Positions 4,767 through 47,735 of a stretch of DNA of 64,000 bases are shown one piece after another (within the stretch, counting starts at the first letter, position 1; each line of letters starts with the position of its first letter). A model generated the notes under the pieces. That model did not search any database. It saw only the letters and a program-made list of their open reading frames with translations, and was not told the DNA's origin. Where the stretch lies: assembly GCA_964485575.1 (NCBI GenBank), contig CAZAJO010000004.1, forward strand, positions 25,307-89,306. Direction: 5' to 3'. The stretch comes from an uncultured Gammaproteobacteria bacterium. Its GTDB lineage: Bacteria; Patescibacteriota; Microgenomatia; Levybacterales; GWA1-39-11. The position numbers and the translations under genes are program-made.

Positions 4767-7760
4767 TTAAACAACGAAATTCACGATCTTACCTGATACA
4801 TAAATGACTTTCTTAATATCTTGACCCTCTAATTGTTTCAAAACCGCAACTTTAGCTTTATTTTCAATCAGATTTCTATCTTCAAGATCTTGGCTACTAA
4901 TTTCTATTTCTCCCCTTCTTTTTCCGTTGATTTGCACAGGAATTACTGTTGATGATGAAATAAGATGCTTTTGGTCAAATTCAGGCCAATTACTCAAATG
5001 TATTGATCCCTCCCCAATTCCACTCCAAATCTCCTCTGTCATATGGGGAGCAAAAGGAGCAAGAAGCCTGAGATAAACCCTAACTTCTTCCTTGCTTAAT
5101 TCTTGATTGTTAACTCTTACCTCCTGGTTGAGGTAGTTGTACCACTCCATGAGCTTTGCGATTGCAGTGTTGTAGCCAAATTCGGATATATCTTTAGTGA
5201 CCCCCTGGATGGTTTTATGCATCATCATCGTCCTTTCATTACTCAGTTGTACTTCATCCTTTGATGATTGGGAAAGAAGTTTCCAGACTTTTCGTAAAAA
5301 TCTGTTCATACCCTCTATCCCACTATCCCTAAAGTCTCCACCGTCAGAGTATGGGCCTATGAACATGAGGTAAGTACGAAGAGTATCAGCCCCATATTTA
5401 CCGATGTACTCGTCAGGTACAACGACATTTCCTTTGCTTTTACTCATCTTTGCTCCATCCTTTATGATGAGACCATGAGCAAAGAAAGTAGAAAATGGTT
5501 CCTCGAAGTTCAAATACCCCAAATCGGACAGCACCATCGTGACAAAACGTGAATATAAAAGGTGTAGCACACTATGTTCTGCTCCGCCAATGTACATGTT
5601 TACTGGTAGCCATTTTCTAGTTGTTTCTATATCAAAAGGTGCTGTAGATACATCAGTTGAGGGGTATCTGAGGAAATACCAGCTACTATCAAGGAAAGTA
5701 TCTGACACATCGGTCTCTCGAGTTGCATCTCCCCCGCAAGATGGACAGGTAGTCTTGTAAAATTCAGGATGATTGGCAAGTGGAGCTTTTCCTGTTCCCA
5801 TTGGTTTCCAATCGGAAACTGATGGTAAAAGTACAGGAAGTTCAGCTTCAGAAACCGTAAACCATCCTTCCATGCCTGTTACCTCAGCTTTACCATTTTT
5901 TTGACAAGTTGAACAGAAGATCATAGGTATTGGCGGCCCCCAATACCTTTGTCGGGAAATGAGCCAATCCCTGAGGTGGAAATTGGATTTTCTAACCCCA
6001 ATTTCTCTTTTTTCAAGGTTTGAAAGAACTTGATCCATTTGCTCTGGCATTACAAGATCATTCCAGGTATCAGAATTTGTTAAGATCCCTTTTCCCGTAT
6101 AAGGCTCAACTTTGAACTCATCAGAACTATTTGTTGTATCAAACCCAAGCTCAATTGCCCGAGCTACTCCATGCTTTAAAAATCTTTCCCAATGTCTTAT
6201 ACCCTCAAGATCCGGATACGACAGCCAATTTTCAAGAATCTCTTTTGGCGTTCTCCAAACAAGCTCAAAATTCTCGTGCTCTTCATGTTTTGTAGGTAAT
6301 AAATCGTTGTCTTCTAGAATTACAAGATATCCTGAAGCTTTCGCAACCCTATATGACTTTCGCCCTCCACTGAAGAAATGAGGGTAGGCATCTCCAATCT
6401 TTTCAACGTGTTTGAAATTATGAAGCCCACTTTCTTCTGTCACTTCCCGCATTACGCCTTTTTCCTCATCTTCTCCTTCTTCTGTTCCTCCGGCAAATAA
6501 TCCTAGGAAGTTATCCCGCTCCGGCCAGAGCGCGACTGCATATTTTTGAGTCCTTGGATCAAATATCACACCTGCTCCTCCATCGCGTCTTTCTTCACCA
6601 TCATGAGGATTTCCATTTTCAGGCATGATAACCTGTTTTACAGCTAGGTTATATTTCTTGGCAAATTCAAAATCACGGCTGTCATGAGCAGGAACTGCCA
6701 TGATTGCCCCAGTTCCATAGCCTGAAAGTACATAGTCAGCGATCCAAACAGGAATCTCCTCATTATTTACAGGATTTATCGCTGTAAGGCCTGAATCAAC
6801 TCCAGTTTTTTCTTTCCCCTCCCCAGTTCTCTCAATATCAGTCTTATCCTTAACTTTTTCTATGTATTGCCTTACCTCTTTACTATCTAAAGTTGAAACA
6901 AGGCTGTGTTCGGGCGCAATAACCATGAATGTTGCACCATACAACGTATCTGGCCGTGTTGTAAAAACCTTCAAACTTTCCTCTCGATCTTTGATTTTGA
7001 ATTCAACCTCCGCTCCTTCACTTTTACCTATCCAATTTGTTTGGGCAATTTTGACCTTGTTCGACCAATCAAGACCTTCAATATTTTTAAGTAGTCTGTC
7101 TGCATATTTAGTAATCCTAAAGAACCACTGTTCAAGATTTTTCTTCTCCACTTTTGTGCCGCAACGCTCACACGACCCATCTATAACTTGCTCATCAGAC
7201 AAAACCGTTAAGTCTTTTGGACACCAATTAACAAGAGCGGTATCACGATATGCAAGGCCAGCTTTAAAAAGTGTTACAAATAGCCACTGGGTCCATTTAT
7301 AGTAATTTGGATTATATGTTTCGACCGTACGTTGCCAATCAAACGAGTTTCCAATACTTCTCATTTGCCTATAAAAGTTCTTCTCAGCAATCTCTGCCTG
7401 TTCTTTAGGGTGTCTTCCTACTTTTAAGGCATAGTTTTCACTATGAATACCAAATCCGTCTAACCCGATAGGCTCAAGAACATCCTTCCCTTGCATGCGT
7501 TGAAATTTTGCGTATACATCGGCACCAGTAAATGCGTACATATTGCCTACATGAAGCCCCTCTGCTGAAGGGTATGGGAACATCATGAGGTTAAAATATG
7601 GGTTCTTTGCTGCTTTTATATCAGGGCTAAAAGTCCTGTCACTCTCCCATTTCTCTTGCCATTTAGCCTCAATATCTGCTGGTATATATTTATTTTCTGC
7701 TGACTTTTGCTGCTTCATATAGACATCCTCTATTCTATCAAATCCAAGTACAAACTTCAC
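4767..7760 (-). CDS. leuS: Leucyl-tRNA synthetase carrying an internal NUDIX-hydrolase-like insertion; the true start is more likely the Met at 7718
   Basis: Class I HVGN (HIGH) and KMSKS motifs, and the CP1 editing motifs TTRPDT and AVPAHDSRD. A perfect Nudix box GGTEEGEDEEKGVMREVTEESGL lies between the editing region and the RDW/RYWG segment. Confidence 0.93.
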   Translation of the reverse strand: MKFVLGFDRIEDVYMKQQKSAENKYIPADIEAKWQEKWESDRTFSPDIKAAKNPYFNLMMFPYPSAEGLHVGNMYAFTGADVYAKFQRMQGKDVLEPIGLDGFGIHSENYALKVGRHPKEQAEIAEKNFYRQMRSIGNSFDWQRTVETYNPNYYKWTQWLFVTLFKAGLAYRDTALVNWCPKDLTVLSDEQVIDGSCERCGTKVEKKNLEQWFFRITKYADRLLKNIEGLDWSNKVKIAQTNWIGKSEGAEVEFKIKDREESLKVFTTRPDTLYGATFMVIAPEHSLVSTLDSKEVRQYIEKVKDKTDIERTGEGKEKTGVDSGLTAINPVNNEEIPVWIADYVLSGYGTGAIMAVPAHDSRDFEFAKKYNLAVKQVIMPENGNPHDGEERRDGGAGVIFDPRTQKYAVALWPERDNFLGLFAGGTEEGEDEEKGVMREVTEESGLHNFKHVEKIGDAYPHFFSGGRKSYRVAKASGYLVILEDNDLLPTKHEEHENFELVWRTPKEILENWLSYPDLEGIRHWERFLKHGVARAIELGFDTTNSSDEFKVEPYTGKGILTNSDTWNDLVMPEQMDQVLSNLEKREIGVRKSNFHLRDWLISRQRYWGPPIPMIFCSTCQKNGKAEVTGMEGWFTVSEAELPVLLPSVSDWKPMGTGKAPLANHPEFYKTTCPSCGGDATRETDVSDTFLDSSWYFLRYPSTDVSTAPFDIETTRKWLPVNMYIGGAEHSVLHLLYSRFVTMVLSDLGYLNFEEPFSTFFAHGLIIKDGAKMSKSKGNVVVPDEYIGKYGADTLRTYLMFIGPYSDGGDFRDSGIEGMNRFLRKVWKLLSQSSKDEVQLSNERTMMMHKTIQGVTKDISEFGYNTAIAKLMEWYNYLNQEVRVNNQELSKEEVRVYLRLLAPFAPHMTEEIWSGIGEGSIHLSNWPEFDQKHLISSSTVIPVQINGKRRGEIEISSQDLEDRNLIENKAKVAVLKQLEGQDIKKVIYVSGKIVNFVV

Positions 7761-7784
7761 TACAACGAAGTAAGTGGATTAATC

Positions 7785-7878
7785 GCGGGTGGCTAGCGGG
7801 GGGAGACCCTCACTGAGCATCCGCAGTGAAGCAACGCGAAACGAGGATTGTCGAGTGAGGAGCGACGACAGAACCCGC
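7785..7878. ncRNA. GC-rich structured RNA-like repeat, family 1 copy A (orientation undetermined)
   Basis: About 95 nt, near-identical to 9623..9718. Closing stem GCGGGU/ACCCGC and internal stem CCUCACU/AGUGAGG. Both stems show compensatory substitutions in copy B. Confidence 0.4.
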
Positions 7879-7889
7879 ACTTCTTGGCA

Positions 7890-7920
7890 GGAACCCAAAA
7901 ATTCTGATTTGTGCTACAAT
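7890..7920 (+). promoter_or_regulatory. Putative extended -10 promoter (TGcTACAAT) ahead of the Clp_N gene
   Basis: tttgtgctacaat at 7908..7920; the -35 is weak. The Clp_N ATG at 8043 is preceded by an aggag RBS. Confidence 0.3.
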
Positions 7921-8042
7921 CCCCCTATCGCTTTGCGGTTAAATAACGCTCGGCCTTTTGGCCTTAGCTTGCGTTGTGTTGGCCGTGAGGCTCGCACATT
8001 AAAAACGCAGGAATTATTCGTAACTACAGCAGGAGTACGTCA

Positions 8043-8498
8043 ATGAATCTGGAAGAACTCTATTTATCCGACCCTCTCCGAAGGACACTCATCCTTGCAG
8101 GTGACGAGGCCAAACGCCTCCGTCGTAAGGAAGTGTCCACCCTAGACATTGTCGCAGGGATGCTCCTTGAAGGAGAAGGAACTGCGGCAGTAGCCCTAGC
8201 ACGATTCGATGTGGACATCCATGCATATCGCCGTGCAGTCGGCAGAATTTTTGGAGAAGGGAAATCACCTCCAAATCCACAGATTGTCTTTACGCACAAG
8301 GCAGAAAAAGCGCTGATCGCCGGACGGGAAGTTGCTGACTGCCTCAACCACGTGACCACCGGAACCGGTCATGTCTTAATCGCTGTCACACGCGACGTGA
8401 GATCTGATGCCGCCGGAGTTCTGCAATCACTCAGGGTGAACCTTGATAATCTGAGGGCAATAGTCCTCACGATCATCTACGATTACCCTGGTCGGTGA
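8043..8498 (+). CDS. Clp N-terminal domain (double Clp_N repeat) protein, GC-rich
   Basis: STLDIVAGMLLEGEGTAAVALARFDVD and a second repeat match the ClpA/ClpC N-domain pattern. Codon third positions are strongly G/C, unlike the flanking genes. Confidence 0.7.
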   Translation: MNLEELYLSDPLRRTLILAGDEAKRLRRKEVSTLDIVAGMLLEGEGTAAVALARFDVDIHAYRRAVGRIFGEGKSPPNPQIVFTHKAEKALIAGREVADCLNHVTTGTGHVLIAVTRDVRSDAAGVLQSLRVNLDNLRAIVLTIIYDYPGR

Positions 8499-8564
8499 TG
8501 GTGCAACACATCCTACGGTGAGCTACTCGCTCACCCCGAACCCCTAGTTTTTGGAGGTGCCCAC

Positions 8565-8897
8565 GTGGGCGAGCAACTATCGGAATCCAGCCAAGATCAA
8601 GAGGCTGGCGAAAAGCCAAGGGCAGGCAGGGCGTCAGACCCTAAGCCCAAGCACCCAGGCACAGTCCTTGAGCGGCTTACGGCCATCCTCGTCGAACAAC
8701 TCGGCGTTGAAGAGGAGGACGTTACCCTAAGTGCCAACTTCGTTGACGACCTCAACGCGGACTCCCTCGACCTCGTCGAGCTCATCATGTCCCTGGAGGA
8801 GGAGTTCGACTCCGAAATCCCTGACGAGGACGCGAAAGCCATCACGGACGTCCAGGCGGCACTGGACTACCTCCGCGACCACGGCGTCGTCGACTAA
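8565..8897 (+). CDS. acpP: Acyl carrier protein (AcpP-like) with about 30-aa N-terminal extension; GTG start with GGAGG RBS
   Basis: [58 protein letters not shown] is near-canonical AcpP, including the DSL phosphopantetheine attachment site. GC-rich codons. Confidence 0.75.
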
Positions 8898-8922
8898 CGC
8901 CCTACCTGCGTTTTCAACCAAG

Positions 8923-8955
8923 AGGCGCCCTTCGGGGCGCCTTACCTTTCTTTGA
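8923..8955 (+). terminator. Intrinsic terminator after acpP-like gene
   Basis: aggcgccc-ttcg-gggcgcct hairpin with UUCG tetraloop, followed by tacctttctttg. Confidence 0.6.
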
Positions 8956-8989
8956 CTCTTTTTCAAATTTGAGATACCATTAACCTTAT

Positions 8990-9613
8990 ATGAGAAGCAA
9001 GCAGATTCTTGAAGGTTCCTCTATAGTCCTTGCAGTATTTTTCGTGTTTTTAGTACAAAATACCGTTCTTATCACTTATAATTCCTATTTGCTAGCCATA
9101 CTTATCATTTTTTCCGCCATATACATCAGCCTCAAAAGAAGATCAAAGTCTCCATCTTCCCTTTTCTCCGGTAGCCCTGTTGAACTCTTCGGACTCATAT
9201 CAATAATAGTACTCATGGTCAGCCTCACAAATGGACTTTCTTCTCCCCTATTCTTCTTTCTTTACTTCATCTTGTTCTTACTTGCATTCATGTGTGAAAG
9301 TATAACCATATGGATATTTTTGACCTCAATTCTACTTTTCTTCCTACCGATAGTTCTGCAGAGTGTGTCCTCTGATTCGCTTATCAAAATGGGATCACTA
9401 GTGCTAATTTCCCCTATAGCCTATTTCATCGGTAGGGAATTTGAGCGTAGACAACTCCTAAACCGTAAGATAGAAAGCAAAACTGATGAAATCATTCAAG
9501 AAGCAAGACTGCTAAAAGAGGATGGAACCCCTAAGGGTCAAGATGAATCTGAGGCTATTGATGAAATAATTGAAGAAGCCTCATCACTTAAAGAAGATGC
9601 ACAAACTGATTAA
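8990..9613 (+). CDS. Polytopic membrane protein with acidic C-terminal tail (hypothetical)
   Basis: Five or more hydrophobic segments, C-terminal E/D-rich region, native low-GC codon usage. Confidence 0.55.
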   Translation: MRSKQILEGSSIVLAVFFVFLVQNTVLITYNSYLLAILIIFSAIYISLKRRSKSPSSLFSGSPVELFGLISIIVLMVSLTNGLSSPLFFFLYFILFLLAFMCESITIWIFLTSILLFFLPIVLQSVSSDSLIKMGSLVLISPIAYFIGREFERRQLLNRKIESKTDEIIQEARLLKEDGTPKGQDESEAIDEIIEEASSLKEDAQTD

Positions 9614-9622
9614 CAATGATTT

Positions 9623-9718
9623 GGGGTGGCTAGCGGGGGGAGGCCCTCATCGAGCACCCGCAGTGAAGCAACGCGAAACGAGGATTGTCGGATGAGGGAG
9701 GAGCGACGACAGGACCCC
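9623..9718. ncRNA. GC-rich structured RNA-like repeat, family 1 copy B
   Basis: Same element as 7785..7878. Closing stem UGGGGU/ACCCCA and internal stem CCCUCAUC/GAUGAGGG are the compensated versions of copy A. Ends 8 nt before the ATG at 9727. Confidence 0.4.
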
Positions 9719-9726
9719 ATTTAAGC

Positions 9727-10500
9727 ATGAATAAAAAAAGTATCACAACTATTCTTTTCTCACCAAAAGGAACTGCAGTATTCCTTACGCTCAACTTTGC
9801 CCTTTTTTGCCTATTTTTAGGTAAGAGTATTAGTGCGGAAACGATGTCTAATTCATCGTATAAAATCAGGTTTGGCAACCTCAATTCATTTGCTGGCAAA
9901 CCTTCAAATGCCTCATATAGCCTTGGAATAACAGGAGGACAAATAGCCCCTGGTCTTTATTCGGGTACAAATTTTAAAGTTAGAGCAGGATTTCAGTATA
10001 TAAAATCAATAATCCCCTTCACCTTCAAGATAAGCAGCGTATTTATCGACTTTGGACCCATAACACCAGGAACACCTATTACACGCACAAATACACTCAC
10101 CATTTCAAACGGTTCTGCTTATGGATACACAGTTCTTGCAAGTGAAAATCACCCTCTTCTTATCAATAGCACGGGTATTTCCATACCTGATACCACATGC
10201 GACAGTGGTACATGCACAGAATCAGTAGCAGCCGCCTGGACAAATCTTACTACATTCGGTTTTGGATACCGCTGCGACAATATAACAGGAACAGACTGCC
10301 AATCTGGATTTAGCACAGCCACAAACTATCGACAGTTTTCGGCTAGTAACTCCGGTGAATTAGCCTATCCTGTGATGCGTGGGGTCAATGTTGGACGTAA
10401 TATCCAAAGTCAGATCACATATAAAGTCAATGTTAGTTCCACCCAAGCAACTGGGGAATACCAAAATGTCATATCTTTCGTTGCTGTTCCTTCTATCTAA
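9727..10500 (+). CDS. Secreted protein with N-terminal signal peptide (hypothetical); the ORF-track start at 9685 is a TTG inside the RNA element, so ATG 9727 is preferred
   Basis: MNKKSITTILFSPKGTAVFLTLNFALFCLFLG is a signal-peptide-like N-terminus; the rest is a Ser/Thr/Asn/Gly-rich body. Confidence 0.6.
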   Translation: MNKKSITTILFSPKGTAVFLTLNFALFCLFLGKSISAETMSNSSYKIRFGNLNSFAGKPSNASYSLGITGGQIAPGLYSGTNFKVRAGFQYIKSIIPFTFKISSVFIDFGPITPGTPITRTNTLTISNGSAYGYTVLASENHPLLINSTGISIPDTTCDSGTCTESVAAAWTNLTTFGFGYRCDNITGTDCQSGFSTATNYRQFSASNSGELAYPVMRGVNVGRNIQSQITYKVNVSSTQATGEYQNVISFVAVPSI

Positions 10501-24766: not shown

Positions 24767-25132
24767 ATGGGAAAAATAAGTACATTTACTGATCTTGAAA
24801 CCTGGAAAGAAGGTCATAAGCTAGTAATCGCTGTTTATAAAATTCTTCCAACCATTCCTCGCTCTTCATATTCGCTTATAGATCAATTATCTAGATGTGT
24901 AGTGTCTATTACTTCAAATATTGCTGAAGGCTTCTCGAGGCAAAGCAAAAAAGAAAAGATTCAGTTTTATCACATAGCAAAAGGCTCCCTTACTGAGCTT
25001 CAAAATCAATTGTTAATATGTCGAGATGTCCGATTTATAACACAAAAAGAATTCCTTCCGTTAGCTGAACAGACTATAGTTGTGGGAAAATTACTTACAG
25101 GACTTATTCGATCAGCGCAATCATATCAATGA
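24767..25132 (+). CDS. Four-helix-bundle protein (23S rRNA intervening-sequence protein family; DGR Avd-like fold)
   Basis: AEGFSRQSKKEKIQFYHIAKGSLTELQNQL matches the TIGR02436-type four-helix-bundle family pattern. Confidence 0.7.
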   Translation: MGKISTFTDLETWKEGHKLVIAVYKILPTIPRSSYSLIDQLSRCVVSITSNIAEGFSRQSKKEKIQFYHIAKGSLTELQNQLLICRDVRFITQKEFLPLAEQTIVVGKLLTGLIRSAQSYQ

Positions 25133-35585: not shown

Positions 35586-35760
35586 GATCGTCGATTGCAG
35601 TTCTGAACTTGAGATTTAGATTGAGCGAACGTCTCGACAGCCGAAAAGGCGGAGTGTATTCACGAAGTCCGGGCTGTAGTGAAAGAATGAGAAATCGAAC
35701 GTTCTAGACTGCTCCTCGACGAGAGCTTTTTGTTCTTTTCTCGGAAGAAAAGAACAAAAG
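35586..35760. repeat. Structured non-coding repeat, family 2 copy 1 (about 175 nt), ending in a perfect palindromic hairpin
   Basis: About 85% identical to 47555..47735. Hairpin gttcttttc-tcggaa-gaaaagaac at 35732..35755. Compensatory GUG-UAUU-CAC versus GCG-UACC-CGC between copies. Lies between convergent genes, so it is non-coding. Confidence 0.5.
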
Positions 35761-35807
35761 ATAGAATTAATGTAGGAAGCTCAGCGGGTCGTTTCGCAAC
35801 CCATTGT

Positions 35808-40787: not shown

Positions 40788-41244
40788 CGCCCGAGTCTAC
40801 GAGGGCGCAAGCTTTGCTTACGCCCACTCGTTAGGCTTGAGGTTAGAGAAGGCAGCTTTCACCAAATCACCCCAACAAATTCCCAAAAAGCTTTCTTCCC
40901 TGACTTTTAAGTTAGGAAAGTAGTATGCAGCAGACTATCCATTAGCTGGATAACTTTGCACCATATACCACTTTGTTCTTTGAAAATTGGTATACAGAAA
41001 TTATTTTTGGAAGACACTTCGGTGTCGGATTGAGCGTTCCGTTGGCATGAAAGCTGCACAATGGGCCGCTCAACCCGGCACTGTAAGTTACAACCGGGAA
41101 ACTTCACTTACAAGGAGAACATATTGGAGGCTCGATCTCCGCCCACCATTCCCCAACCGCAAGGTTAGGATCAAAGAATGTGAGCGGTATCGTCCGCCTA
41201 CATTCTTCCTTTAAGTCAGAGTTCAGTTCCGGAGGAACAACACC

Positions 41245-42177
41245 TTGTCTAGGTCATCCCAAGTTTGGGTCGTGTTCAGTATCATCGTCACCGCTATCGC
41301 GGTTGGCTGGGGTATGCACACGCTCGACAACACGGATTCTGCCATCGCGGACGAACCGTCCACGACGGCAACCGCCACAGTGGCGGCCACCCAGACGCCC
41401 AACCCGGGCGACAAGAAGGACCAGCCGCCGGCGCCTAGCGCCGTCTGCCGTCTTTCGGTCATCGGGCCTTGGTCCGAGATCAATGGCACCGCCCCCTACC
41501 GCATCGAAGTCGGTGGAGGCGATGTTCAGCACATGGACTTCTACCCCACGATTGGGGTCCAGTCCATCAGCTACATCGTCGACTCCCTTCCACGCGGCGG
41601 CGTCGCCGCCAAGTGGTACGGGTACGGCCAGATGTGGCAGGGCAACAAGCACGAGTGCGCTAACTTCGACTACGTCAAGGACGCCGTCGAGTACGCGAAG
41701 GGTAACGCCAGCGGCCAGCCCGGCCGCCTCCAGCAGGGCCACAGCGGGATCGTCATTGATCTCCGCGGTGGCAACTTCAAGATCATCGAGAAGCCGAAAG
41801 GCTGGACCGAAGATCAGATCGATGCCCTCATCGCCCTCCACAAGGCGGCGATGAACCCTGCCAATCCGCCTACTGCTGGTGCTGTTCAGGCTCCCAGCGG
41901 CAAGTGCGAAGCCGTCCGCGTTATGCAAGACGAAACCAAGCGCCCCAACGGCGCCAACAGTATCGTTAAGCTTGGCGGCGACGGCCACGCCTACGTCTTC
42001 GAACTCTGGAATCCAGAAGTTCAGGGCGGCAAGGAGATGAAGGTCCTGATTCCTGCAGGCGAAAGCCGTACGTTCACTGGTTTTGGTGGCGCCGCATGGC
42101 AATACCCAACCACGTGCACGGCTCAGCAGATCAAGGACGACTTCAACAACAACCCGAAGCCTGCCTATACCGGTTAA
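41245..42177 (+). CDS. GC-rich, N-terminally membrane-anchored hypothetical protein (310 aa); TTG start with GGAGG RBS
   Basis: ggagg at 41231..41235 and ttg at 41245. TM VWVVFSIIVTAIAVGWG. G/C-dominated third codon positions, unlike the flanks. The antisense ORFs in the track (41254..42102, 41180..41854) are GC-composition artefacts. Confidence 0.6.
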   Translation: MSRSSQVWVVFSIIVTAIAVGWGMHTLDNTDSAIADEPSTTATATVAATQTPNPGDKKDQPPAPSAVCRLSVIGPWSEINGTAPYRIEVGGGDVQHMDFYPTIGVQSISYIVDSLPRGGVAAKWYGYGQMWQGNKHECANFDYVKDAVEYAKGNASGQPGRLQQGHSGIVIDLRGGNFKIIEKPKGWTEDQIDALIALHKAAMNPANPPTAGAVQAPSGKCEAVRVMQDETKRPNGANSIVKLGGDGHAYVFELWNPEVQGGKEMKVLIPAGESRTFTGFGGAAWQYPTTCTAQQIKDDFNNNPKPAYTG

Positions 42178-42208
42178 TCCGGTGGCCGACTTCTCTGTAT
42201 ACCAAGCT

Positions 42209-42239
42209 CGGGATGGTCCCCTTCGGGGGGCCGTCCCGG
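42209..42239 (+). terminator. GC-rich UUCG-tetraloop hairpin immediately after the island-2 gene (terminator-like; weak U tract)
   Basis: cgggatggtcccc-ttcg-gggggccgtcccgg. Confidence 0.4.
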
Positions 42240-42347
42240 CAAGAGAGGGGAGGCGCTAACACCGCTTCCAAAGAACAAACCGGGCATGCCCGGCAGAACG
42301 CTTTGGAGTCGATTGCCTCCCCCCTTTCCCCCTGTACATAAAAACTT

Positions 42348-47554: not shown

Positions 47555-47735
47555 ATCATCGATTGCAGTTCTGAACTTGAGATTTAGATTGAACGAACGT
47601 CTCGACAGCCGAAAAGGCGGAGCGTACCCGCGAAGTCCGGGCTGTAGTGAGTGAATGAAAAATCGAGCGTTCAAGGCTGCATCTCGATGAGAGCTTTTGG
47701 TTCTTTTCTCGGAAGAAAAGAACAGAGTTATTTTG
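47555..47735. repeat. Structured non-coding repeat, family 2 copy 2, abutting the pyk stop codon
   Basis: Hairpin gttcttttc-tcggaa-gaaaagaac at 47700..47723, 4 nt from the pyk stop (47728..47730). The rest is collinear with copy 1. Confidence 0.5.

What the first reader, a model, noticed from the sequence alone, without database searches (positions are those of the whole stretch)
7785..7878. About 95-nt GC-rich structured RNA-like element (family 1), two copies supported by compensatory base changes
7785..7878 and 9623..9718 are about 90% identical. The differences are concentrated in paired positions and preserve pairing. The closing stem is GCGGGU/ACCCGC in copy A and UGGGGU/ACCCCA in copy B. 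The internal long-range stem is CCUCACU/AGUGAGG in copy A and CCCUCAUC/GAUGAGGG in copy B, a transposition that is mirrored in both strands. The invariant core GCAGUGAAGCAACGCGAAACGAGGAUUGUCG is enclosed by that stem. This is covariation evidence for a folded RNA, not a protein or an accidental duplication. The two copies bracket island 1 plus one native gene as direct repeats, so they could also act as recombination or att-like boundaries. I could not match the element to a riboswitch or ribozyme class from memory. Its orientation is undetermined.
Basis: seen in the sequence. Interest (0 to 1): 0.7.

Follow-up and report, generated by a model that had tools for sequence, protein, structure and literature searches.

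The report
Two-copy GC-rich structured intergenic repeat
Two diverged copies of a roughly 95-base non-coding element keep the same fold through matched base changes, but they are recent insertions into variable gene gaps, not island boundaries, and they match no known RNA family closely.

Summary
Copy A (7785-7878) and copy B (9622-9719) differ by 11 substitutions and a 4-nt insert. Eight substitutions form four compensatory base pairs in two helices; 0 of 3000 random-mutation simulations did as well. The purine-rich remainder is nearly invariant.

The "island boundary / att site" reading fails. Related genomes with the same gene order carry the GC-rich island without the element, or lack the island with different junctions. 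The element is absent from every relative examined, apart from a 13-nt remnant. An empty site shows insertion without target duplication. In relatives the same two gaps hold other small insertions.

Rfam gives nothing, even at E<=10. The only outside relatives share just the apical 22-24 nt: a Pedobacter member of the Flavo-1 family (RF01705, function unknown) and, weakly, an attC-like site.

Copy A lies upstream of both flanking promoter-like boxes, so it is probably not in either mRNA. Copy B lies between co-directional genes, 7 nt before a start codon.

Best reading: a lineage-specific dispersed structured repeat of the Flavo-1/ERIC kind, acting as a folded single strand. A novel standalone ncRNA is not excluded. 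Interest is moderate.

The parts
7785..7878 (+). Copy A of the element (94 nt, 64% G+C, 64% purine on the + strand). It lies between the divergent leuS gene (- strand) and the Clp_N/ACP operon (+ strand).
   Evidence: (CM R2 119.9 bits)
9622..9719 (+). Copy B of the element (98 nt, with a GAGG insert after the 3' strand of helix P2). It lies between the stop codon of the 207-aa membrane-protein gene (9611-9613) and the ATG of the 257-aa gene (9727).
   Evidence: CM R2 107.1 bits
7785..7790 (+). P1 5' strand of copy A (GCGGGU). It pairs with 7873-7878 (ACCCGC). In copy B the strands are 9622-9627 (UGGGGU) and 9714-9719 (ACCCCA). Two pairs are changed on both sides.
7873..7878 (+). P1 3' strand of copy A (ACCCGC).
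7808..7814 (+). P2 5' strand of copy A (CCUCACU). It pairs with 7854-7860 (AGUGAGG). In copy B the strands are 9644-9651 (CCCUCAUC) and 9691-9698 (GAUGAGGG). Two adjacent pairs are swapped on both sides.
7854..7860 (+). P2 3' strand of copy A (AGUGAGG).
7821..7853 (+). Invariant 33-nt apical core (CCGCAGUGAAGCAACGCGAAACGAGGAUUGUCG), identical at 9658-9690. Its 24-mer CAGUGAAGCAACGCGAAACGAGGA is identical in a Pedobacter Flavo-1-type element (L001 7669-7692).
7791..7807 (+). 5' purine-rich internal-loop strand (GGCUAGCGGGGGGAGAC). It differs by one base between the copies. It faces 7861-7872 (AGCGACGACAGA), which differs by one base and, in B, is preceded by the 4-nt GAGG insert. The weak isolated pairs predicted here are unsupported.

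Best explanation
This is a lineage-specific, dispersed, non-coding structured repeat. It is the same general kind of thing as the Flavo-1 family of Bacteroidota or the ERIC/BOX/Correia-type intergenic repeats.

A module of about 95 nt entered two hypervariable intergenic gaps of this genome. At the one gap where an empty site can be reconstructed, it entered without a target-site duplication. Its two helices (P1 of 6 bp, P2 of 7-8 bp) have since been kept by compensatory change, and its purine-rich unpaired two-thirds stayed almost invariant. So a folded single strand with sequence-specific loops is what is under selection, most likely the + strand.

Copy B sits between two co-directional genes and ends 7 nt before the downstream ATG. 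It would be transcribed as part of that mRNA, where it can act as an RNA structure affecting stability, processing or translation initiation. Copy A sits upstream of both flanking extended -10 boxes and is probably silent DNA. The element does not delimit the GC-rich island.

Shown: the two copies, the fold-preserving substitutions, absence from relatives, the empty site, and the lack of any Rfam match.

Inferred: mobility (no enzyme was identified), the strand, transcription of copy B, and any effect on neighbouring genes.
For: - Fold under selection: 4 compensatory pairs, none broken, 0/3000 in simulation. Substitutions are concentrated in the stems, p = 0.0012.
- Insertion polymorphism: five sets of syntenic relatives lack the element at both sites (blastn; nhmmer; CM). 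L012-L014 keep only GCGGGTGGCTAGC at site A.
- Empty site: L003 reads ...AATAAT|ACTTCTTTGTGCTACAAT. The window reads ...ATTAATC[element]ACTTCTT....
- The same gaps are insertion hot spots. Relatives have an AT-rich MITE of about 150 nt with an 8-bp duplication at site A (L003) or site B (L012, L016, L017), and a 23S_rRNA_IVP gene at site B (L003).
- Copy A lies between the leuS box TGATAGAAT (- strand, 7740-7732) and the operon box TGCTACAAT (7912-7920). Both boxes are conserved in relatives that have unrelated sequence in between.
- Apart from a 13-nt remnant of the element's 5' end in L012-L014, the only outside match is a Flavo-1-type element in Pedobacter that shares the 24-nt apex. Flavo-1 is a many-copy family (many seed rows from single genomes; 239 instances listed) with a hypervariable apex. 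In Flavobacterium psychrophilum its hits lie sense or antisense to transcribed regions, or outside them (PMC9723704).
- No shared promoter or terminator flanks the two copies.
Against: - Only two copies were seen in about 75 kb of this genome (window plus L020, L023, L024). The copy number in the whole genome is unknown.
- There is no terminal inverted repeat beyond 6 bp and no target duplication. No transposase, integrase or reverse transcriptase was found among the 20 window ORFs scanned.
- The element is not a near-perfect palindrome. As single-stranded DNA it folds no better than shuffled sequence.
- The family is very rare. Exact-core scans of about 185,000 species genomes, JGI metagenomes and IMG/VR gave one, one and zero matches.
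- Strong conservation of the unpaired segments would also fit a dedicated ncRNA.
Confidence: 0.5

Rival explanations
1. It is a new stand-alone structured ncRNA, or a cis-regulatory leader, transcribed from the + strand. The two loci would be two paralogous genes of a new RNA class whose conserved purine-rich loops bind a protein or ligand or form a catalytic core.
For: - Stems covary while unpaired regions are nearly invariant.
- It is a G+C-rich island in an A+T-rich genome (64% against about 40%).
- The + strand is 69% purine outside the helices.
- The RNA fold of the + strand scores best (z -1.6 to -1.8 against -1.0 to -1.6 for the - strand and about 0 for DNA).
- Both copies have the same orientation and lie upstream of + strand genes.
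- There is no Rfam match, so it would be new.
Against: - The copies share no promoter or terminator.
- The -10-like hexamers just upstream would start transcription inside P1.
- Copy A is separated from its downstream gene by that gene's own conserved promoter and about 165 nt.
- The element is absent from all close relatives, although these keep the flanking genes.
- No homologs that keep the helices were found anywhere.
Confidence: 0.25
2. It is a DNA-level substrate of a trans-acting single-strand recombinase or transposase (attC-like, or an IS200/IS605/REP-like hairpin element). The fold would matter in single-stranded DNA, not RNA.
For: - It inserted without a target duplication.
- Structure is conserved and sequence in the stems is free, as in attC sites.
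- Copy A lies in probably untranscribed DNA.
- A 22-nt piece of the core lies in the variable apex of an attC-like site (ending GTTAGGC) in metagenome contig L002.
Against: - There are no R''/R' core sites (RYYYAAC/GTTRRRY) at the ends on either strand.
- The single-stranded DNA fold is no better than shuffled sequence. Only 26-28 of 94 nt lie in solid helices.
- No integrase or Y1 transposase was found in the window.
- The L002 match is weak: 12.9 bits, E 4.5 with CM R2. A 22-mer match in a collection of that size is not far from chance.
Confidence: 0.15
3. The two copies are attL/attR-like or recombination boundaries of a mobile unit made of GC-rich island 1 plus the membrane-protein gene.
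For: - The copies are direct repeats with a 33-nt identical core, 1837 nt apart.
- One Logan contig (L007, sample SRR16481186, 1853 nt = 1837 + 16) joins the left half of B to the right half of A. A circle or tandem duplication formed by repeat recombination would look like this.
Against: - L003 and L017 carry the island with neither repeat. L016 lacks the island, with different junctions and no solo repeat.
- The membrane-protein gene is syntenic core in all relatives.
- There is no recombinase in the unit.
- The L007 junction can be a de Bruijn-graph artefact at a repeat of at least 31 nt. The other five contigs simply break at the core.
Confidence: 0.03
4. It is a functionless segmental duplicate. 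Its stems were kept complementary by a mutational mechanism (intra-strand template switching or hairpin repair) rather than by selection.
For: The CU>UC / AG>GA change is a mirrored dinucleotide inversion, a pattern that template switching can create (own knowledge). The family is tiny. Copy A is probably untranscribed.
Against: - Two separate helices each carry two compensated pairs.
- The 68 nt outside the helices, which template switching would not protect, carry only 3 substitutions against 8 in 26 stem nt.
- The 24-nt apex is identical in a bacterium of another phylum.
Confidence: 0.07

Closest known systems
Flavo-1 RNA motif (Rfam RF01705; Weinberg et al. 2010, PMC2864571), in particular its 'CCCACAG...GCGAGGACUU' subtype
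   Same: - Both are imperfect hairpins of similar size (about 70-100 nt in most seed rows) with purine-rich conserved internal loops, a variable apex, an intergenic location and unknown function.
- The Pedobacter element L001 7634-7717 is a clear member of that subtype (68.4 bits with CM R1 built from 10 published seed sequences; 34 bits with Rfam). It carries the identical 24-mer CAGUGAAGCAACGCGAAACGAGGA, followed by UUGU..CGA, as the window copies do.
- 'auCC[apex]GauUGU' of the Flavo-1 consensus reads AUCC[23 nt]GAUUGU in copy A.
- CM R2, built from A and B, aligns end to end with the Pedobacter element (25.9 bits, E 0.0045).
   Different: - Neither the Rfam model (no hit at E<=10 on 116 nt) nor the subtype model R1 (no hit at E<=10 in the window) recognises copies A or B.
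- The basal helices and the GAA/GGA loops of Flavo-1 are absent.
- The window element has an extra 7-8 bp helix (P2), different loop sequences and a much higher G+C content.
- It sits in a genome whose gene content looks like Patescibacteria/CPR, not Bacteroidota or Spirochaetes. The taxon is inferred, not tested.
Enterobacterial ERIC, pneumococcal BOX and Neisseria Correia elements (small transcribed intergenic repeats that fold as RNA)
   Same: About 100 nt, non-coding, present or absent at equivalent intergenic sites in related genomes, hairpin kept by compensatory changes, and often inside operons next to gene starts. The features of these families are from my own knowledge.
   Different: Those families have tens to hundreds of copies, much more extensive self-complementarity and, for Correia elements, terminal inverted repeats with a TA duplication. 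Here only two copies are seen, only 13-14 solid base pairs, and no duplication.
Integron attC sites
   Same: Structure is conserved and sequence is free. Insertion leaves no target duplication. Copies sit next to genes. One attC-like site (L002) holds 22 nt of the core in its apex.
   Different: There are no R''/L''/L'/R' boxes, no GTTRRRY, no integrase and no cassette array. The flanked genes are syntenic without the element in relatives.
Classical MITEs, such as the AT-rich element of about 150 nt found in the relatives at the same sites
   Same: Small non-coding insertions in the same two intergenic gaps.
   Different: The relatives' element has terminal inverted repeats of about 20 bp and an 8-bp duplication (TAAGCGAA), and it recurs at several sites. 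The window element has a 6-bp terminal stem, no duplication and a different sequence.

Membership tests
Flavo-1 RNA (RF01705) | Scores at or above the Rfam gathering threshold (42 bits) with the family covariance model | tested here: not met
   No Rfam hit on the window at gathering, none at E<=10 on 7700-9800, none at E<=10 on 7775-7890 alone.
Flavo-1 RNA (RF01705) | Basal helices P1-P4 with conserved GAA/GGA and GGA/GUA internal loops (SS_cons of the published alignment) | tested here: not met
   CM R1, built from 10 seed sequences of the closest subtype, finds the Pedobacter element (68.4 bits) but not copies A or B (nothing at E<=10, filters off).
Flavo-1 RNA (RF01705) | Sequence relatedness to a bona fide member | tested here: inconclusive
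   The 24-nt apex is identical to the Pedobacter member. CM R2 gives 25.9 bits, E 0.0045, end to end, but most of the score comes from the apex.
Flavo-1 RNA (RF01705) | Occurs in Bacteroidota (a few in Spirochaetes), many copies per genome | tested here: inconclusive
   Two copies in about 75 kb. The gene content (ComEC/ComEA, giant surface proteins with an N-terminal integrase-SAM domain, few Pfam hits) suggests Patescibacteria by inference only.
Any Rfam 15 family (riboswitch, ribozyme, SRP, 6S, tRNA-like and others) | Covariance-model match | tested here: not met
   ARAGORN finds no tRNA or tmRNA in the window.
Integron attC site | R'' (RYYYAAC) and R' (GTTRRRY) core sites at the two ends, with L''/L' inner sites | tested here: not met
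   The ends read GCGGGUGG...AGAACCCGC and UGGGGUGG...GGACCCCA. No GTTRRRY sits at a 3' end on either strand.
Integron attC site | Follows a mobile cassette ORF, in an array and/or near intI | tested here: not met
   The flanking genes are syntenic in relatives without the element. No integrase was found among the 20 ORFs scanned.
MITE (DDE-transposase type) | Target-site duplication flanking the insertion | tested here: not met
   Empty-site comparison with L003 and L017: TAAT|ACTTCTT against TAATC[element]ACTTCTT.
MITE (DDE-transposase type) | Terminal inverted repeats of about 10-40 bp matching those of an autonomous IS | tested here: not met
   Only a 6-bp terminal stem, which differs between the copies. 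No IS was found in the window.
REP/BIME with RAYT | Palindrome of 20-40 nt with a conserved 5' GTAG, high copy number and a RAYT gene in the genome | tested here: inconclusive
   The size and sequence do not fit, and no RAYT is in the window. The rest of the genome could not be examined.
attL/attR of an integrated element (island 1) | The island is present only together with both repeats, and empty sites carry one copy | tested here: not met
   L003 and L017 have the island without repeats. L016 has no island and no repeat.

The most novel reading that the evidence does not exclude
The element, the Pedobacter Flavo-1 variant and possibly an attC-like site share one 22-24-nt apical module (AGUGAAGCAACGCGAAACGAG) that is closed in each case by a different, covarying helix. 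The module would be a portable functional unit, such as a binding site for a widely conserved protein or a tertiary-contact or catalytic core. The window copies would then be the first members of a new structured-RNA class related to Flavo-1 in an A+T-rich, probably Patescibacterial, genome. That would give a handle on the unknown function of the abundant Flavo-1 family.
Probability: 0.12. Interest if true: 0.6.

Novelty: new variant of a known kind. Interest (0 to 1): 0.38.

Why it matters
- If the fold works as RNA, this would be an uncatalogued structured element in a poorly explored, reduced genome. It would also extend the function-unknown Flavo-1 architecture, one of the most numerous 'orphan' RNA motifs, beyond Bacteroidota.
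- The comparison with relatives shows that the two intergenic gaps around the leuS-proximal GC-rich island are recurrent landing sites for unrelated small elements. That is useful for understanding how tiny genomes turn over their non-coding DNA.
- Practically, the 33-nt identical core breaks short-read assemblies exactly at the repeat. It may also generate recombinant junctions.
- The finding corrects a tempting but wrong reading, that the repeats delimit a mobile island.

Tried and rejected
- Known RNA families: Rfam at gathering and at E<=10, including on the element alone, gave nothing. ARAGORN found no tRNA or tmRNA.
- Recalled resemblances to hammerhead, twister, group II intron domain V, SRP domain IV and k-turns were checked by eye and dropped. 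The consensus does not fit and Rfam is silent.
- Protein coding: the only frames open through copy A are put out of frame in B by the 4-nt insert. A six-frame peptide query against 5.8 billion proteins gave nothing at E<=10.
- DGR template/variable repeat pair: the differences are not adenine-specific and copy B is not inside a gene.
- More family members, all negative or marginal:
  - core 22-mer in species genomes: 1 hit, Pedobacter
  - 20-mer in JGI metagenomes: 1 hit, L002
  - three patterns in IMG/VR: 0
  - blastn against plasmids: 0
  - blastn against phages: two chance-level hits at E = 4
  - blastn, nhmmer and CM searches of about 230 kb of related loci and of the window: only A and B
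- Blastn of the Pedobacter element against plasmids found only ordinary Flavo-1 copies with other apices.
- Deletion variant (leuS joined to the 257-aa gene through one hybrid copy): not found. The only extra contig breaks at the core.
- Transposase or integrase next door: none among 20 ORFs.
- Thermodynamic support is weak. Z-scores are no better than -1.8, so the case rests on covariation.

Full report
**1. The observation**

The window is A+T-rich (about 36-44% G+C) with a few G+C-rich patches. At 7785-7878 and 9622-9719 on the + strand lie two copies of one element. The quoted invariant 31-mer occurs only at these two places, with 0 expected by chance.

After placing the 4-nt GAGG insert of copy B by hand, the copies differ at 11 of 94 columns. 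RNAalifold on that alignment gives one long imperfect hairpin of 28 pairs. All 28 pairs are standard in both copies. Four pairs are changed on both sides:
- G-C to U-A and C-G to G-C in the closing helix P1
- C-G/U-A swapped to U-A/C-G in helix P2

A fifth change goes from U.G to C-G. Sliding the 3' partners by 1-3 columns drops pairing to 32-46% with no compensated pair. Giving copy A 11 random substitutions and refolding never produced 4 compensated pairs in 3000 trials; 3 pairs appeared in 0.3% of trials.

Substitutions hit 8 of 26 nt in P1 and P2 but only 3 of the other 68 nt (p = 0.0012). That remainder is 69% purine on the + strand.

Two cautions apply. The folding energy is not unusual for the composition: the RNA z-score is -1.6 to -1.8 on the + strand, and the DNA z-score is about -1.25 to +0.24. 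Only P1 and P2 have any covariation support.

**2. What surrounds the copies**

Copy A lies between leuS (- strand, starting at or just below 7760) and a G+C-rich two-gene operon. That operon holds a Clp_N-domain protein (8043-8498) and an acyl-carrier-like protein (8565-8897), followed by a terminator at 8922-8943. Copy B lies between the stop codon of a 207-aa membrane-protein gene and the ATG (9727) of a 257-aa gene, all on the + strand.

Two extended -10 boxes flank copy A: TGATAGAAT for leuS (7740-7732, - strand) and TGCTACAAT for the operon (7912-7920). Both are conserved in relatives, while the DNA between them is unrelated. Copy A is therefore upstream of both putative promoters and is probably in neither mRNA. 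This is an inference from consensus and conservation.

No promoter or terminator is shared by the two copies. No open frame survives the 4-nt indel.

**3. Relatives decide the 'island boundary' question**

Exact-protein look-ups retrieved syntenic loci from related genomes. The shared gene order is leuS / [island] / 206-aa membrane protein / 257-aa protein / 324-aa protein / giant protein.
- L003 and L004 have the whole island (Clp_N 79% identical) but no element at either site.
- L017 has a decaying island and a clean empty site A.
- L016 has no island at all. Its junctions differ and no solo copy is left.
- L012-L014 keep only the first 13 nt of the element (GCGGGTGGCTAGC) at site A.

Blastn, nhmmer and a covariance model built from A and B find no other copy in these loci or elsewhere in the window. 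So the repeats do not define the island. The gene they enclose together with the island is ordinary syntenic core.

Comparing L003 (...AATAAT|ACTTCTTTGTGCTACAAT) with the window (...ATTAATC[element]ACTTCTT...) shows an insertion with no target-site duplication.

The same two gaps are busy in the relatives. A different, AT-rich MITE of about 150 nt, with 20-bp inverted ends and an 8-bp duplication, sits at site A in L003 and at site B in L012, L016 and L017. It recurs at other sites too. In L003, site B holds a 23S_rRNA_IVP/Avd-like gene flanked by 7-nt tandem repeats.

Short Logan contigs of the window's own strain break exactly at the 31-33-nt identical core, as expected for k = 31 assembly. 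One contig, L007, joins B-left to A-right. Its length equals the repeat period plus 16 nt. This is either an artefact or a recombination product, and I could not tell which.

**4. Relatives of the element itself**

Rfam 15 gives nothing: at gathering on the whole window, at E<=10 on 2.1 kb, and at E<=10 on the 116 nt of copy A alone.

Exact scans with the core found one match in about 185,000 species genomes and none in IMG/VR. A 20-mer scan found one match in JGI metagenomes. Plasmid and phage collections gave nothing meaningful.

The genome hit is an intergenic element of a Pedobacter MAG. It shares 24 identical bases plus UUGU..CGA. It is a sub-threshold Flavo-1 hit in Rfam (34 bits against the 42-bit threshold).

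I read the published Flavo-1 seed alignment (Weinberg et al. 2010, supplement). The family is a hairpin with conserved purine-rich internal loops near the base and a hypervariable apex, and many seed rows come from the same genome. One subtype reads ...AAAGCC CACAG [hairpin] GCGAGGACUU...

A model built from ten seed sequences of that subtype scores the Pedobacter element at 68.4 bits (E 4e-15), but it does not find the window copies at E<=10. Conversely, the A+B model aligns to the Pedobacter element end to end at 25.9 bits (E 0.0045), with P2 deleted. Most of that score comes from the apex.

So the window element is not a Flavo-1 member by any model-based test. It does share an apical module and a general architecture with one. 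In copy A, AUCC[23 nt]GAUUGU mirrors the Flavo-1 consensus auCC[apex]GauUgu.

The metagenome hit (L002) places 22 nt of the core in the apex of an attC-like site that ends in GTTAGGC, next to a second, canonical-looking attC. Statistically it is weak.

Flavo-1 has no known function. In Flavobacterium psychrophilum its hits lie sense, antisense or outside transcribed regions (PMC9723704).

**5. How it most likely works**

These facts fit a small dispersed module whose folded single strand is the selected feature:
- lineage-specific insertion into hot-spot gaps
- no duplication and no coding capacity
- no own transcription signals
- two helices kept by compensation and loops kept in sequence
- a nearest relative in a many-copy family of unknown function

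Because the element is not a good palindrome and folds poorly as DNA, an RNA-level or protein-bound single-strand role is more likely than a cruciform or attC-type DNA role. This fits the purine-rich + strand.

Copy B is placed to be transcribed with its neighbours and abuts the next start codon. One of its private changes creates AGGA 12 nt upstream of the ATG. Copy A is probably inert. How the module spreads is unknown. No transposase, integrase or reverse transcriptase is in the window.

I put about 0.5 on this reading. I put 0.25 on a genuine new ncRNA gene or leader, 0.15 on a single-stranded DNA recombination substrate, 0.07 on a neutral duplicate whose stems were kept by template switching, and 0.03 on island att sites.

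**6. Novelty and score**

The element itself is uncatalogued. Structure-preserving intergenic repeats of about 100 nt are a known kind of thing, and the family here is tiny (two copies, one lineage). The cross-phylum identity of the 24-nt apex and the link to the orphan Flavo-1 family are the interesting parts. I rate it a new variant of a known kind, with interest about 0.38.

Noticed in passing
window 35587-35762 and 47555-47730 (+): A second, unrelated two-copy structured family of about 170 nt (21 differences in 176 columns, about 88% identical). There are 52 predicted pairs, 2 changed on both sides, 4 on one side, and none broken. It ends in a strong terminator hairpin (GUUCUUUUCUCGGAAGAAAAGAAC). 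Both copies lie between convergent genes. There is no Rfam match. It looks more like a true sRNA or 3'-end element than family 1 does.
   Followed up: partly
L007 (Logan SRR16481186), ends of the 1853-nt contig: The contig joins the left half of copy B to the right half of copy A and wraps by 16 nt (1853 = 1837-nt repeat period + 16). It is either a circle or tandem duplication made by recombination between the copies, or a graph artefact at the 33-nt identical core.
   Followed up: partly
L012 8276-8288, L013 1320-1332, L014 8408-8420: A 13-nt remnant, GCGGGTGGCTAGC (the element's 5' end), sits at the orthologous site A in relatives that otherwise lack the element. It is followed by TAATCAC tandem repeats. 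This suggests an older presence and later decay at this site.
   Followed up: partly
L003 9681-9860; L012 9746-9900 and 4343-4499; L016/L017 9836-9995; L017 3288-3450: An AT-rich MITE-like family (about 150-170 nt, inverted ends of about 20 bp, 8-bp duplication TAAGCGAA in L003) occupies site A or site B and other gaps in the relatives. It is absent from the window.
   Followed up: partly
window 7910-8042 (+): The G+C-rich leader of the Clp_N/ACP operon starts at an extended -10 box (TGCTACAAT). It is about 90-95% conserved in L003, L012 and L017 while everything upstream is unrelated. It may be a structured 5' UTR in its own right.
   Followed up: no
window 8043-8897; L012 8440-9035; L017 8400-9125; L016 9000-9213: GC-rich island 1 (53-60% G+C in a 40% genome) is old and decaying in the clade. 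It is intact in L003, Clp_N is lost or degraded in L012 and L017, and the whole island is absent in L016. The Clp_N protein has only two 90%-identity clusters in 5.8 billion proteins, so no outside donor was visible in that word-prefiltered search.
   Followed up: partly
window ~41000-42340: A second G+C-rich island (about 60% G+C). It holds a 310-aa ORF with no Pfam hit and is followed by G+C-rich hairpins (for example 42212-42240 GGGATGGTCCCCTTCGGGGGGCCGTCCC).
   Followed up: no
window 24767-25132 (+); L003 11661-12038; L012 5222-5581: Genes of the 23S_rRNA_IVP / Avd-like four-helix-bundle family sit at different, non-orthologous intergenic positions in the window and its relatives. In L003 one sits exactly at site B. 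They behave like another small mobile cargo.
   Followed up: partly
window 7879-7909 (+): Just right of copy A, GGCAGGAACCC...ATTCT resembles the element's own 3' end plus flank (GACAGAACCCGCACTTCTT). These roughly 22 nt are extra relative to L003 and L017. It may be a partial duplication or a second decayed copy.
   Followed up: no
window 4767-7760 (-): The leucyl-tRNA synthetase here (983-997 aa) carries a NUDIX-domain insertion (Pfam hit listed for this strain's contig L020 and for L017). The orthologs in L003, L012 and L016 (852-901 aa) lack it.
   Followed up: no
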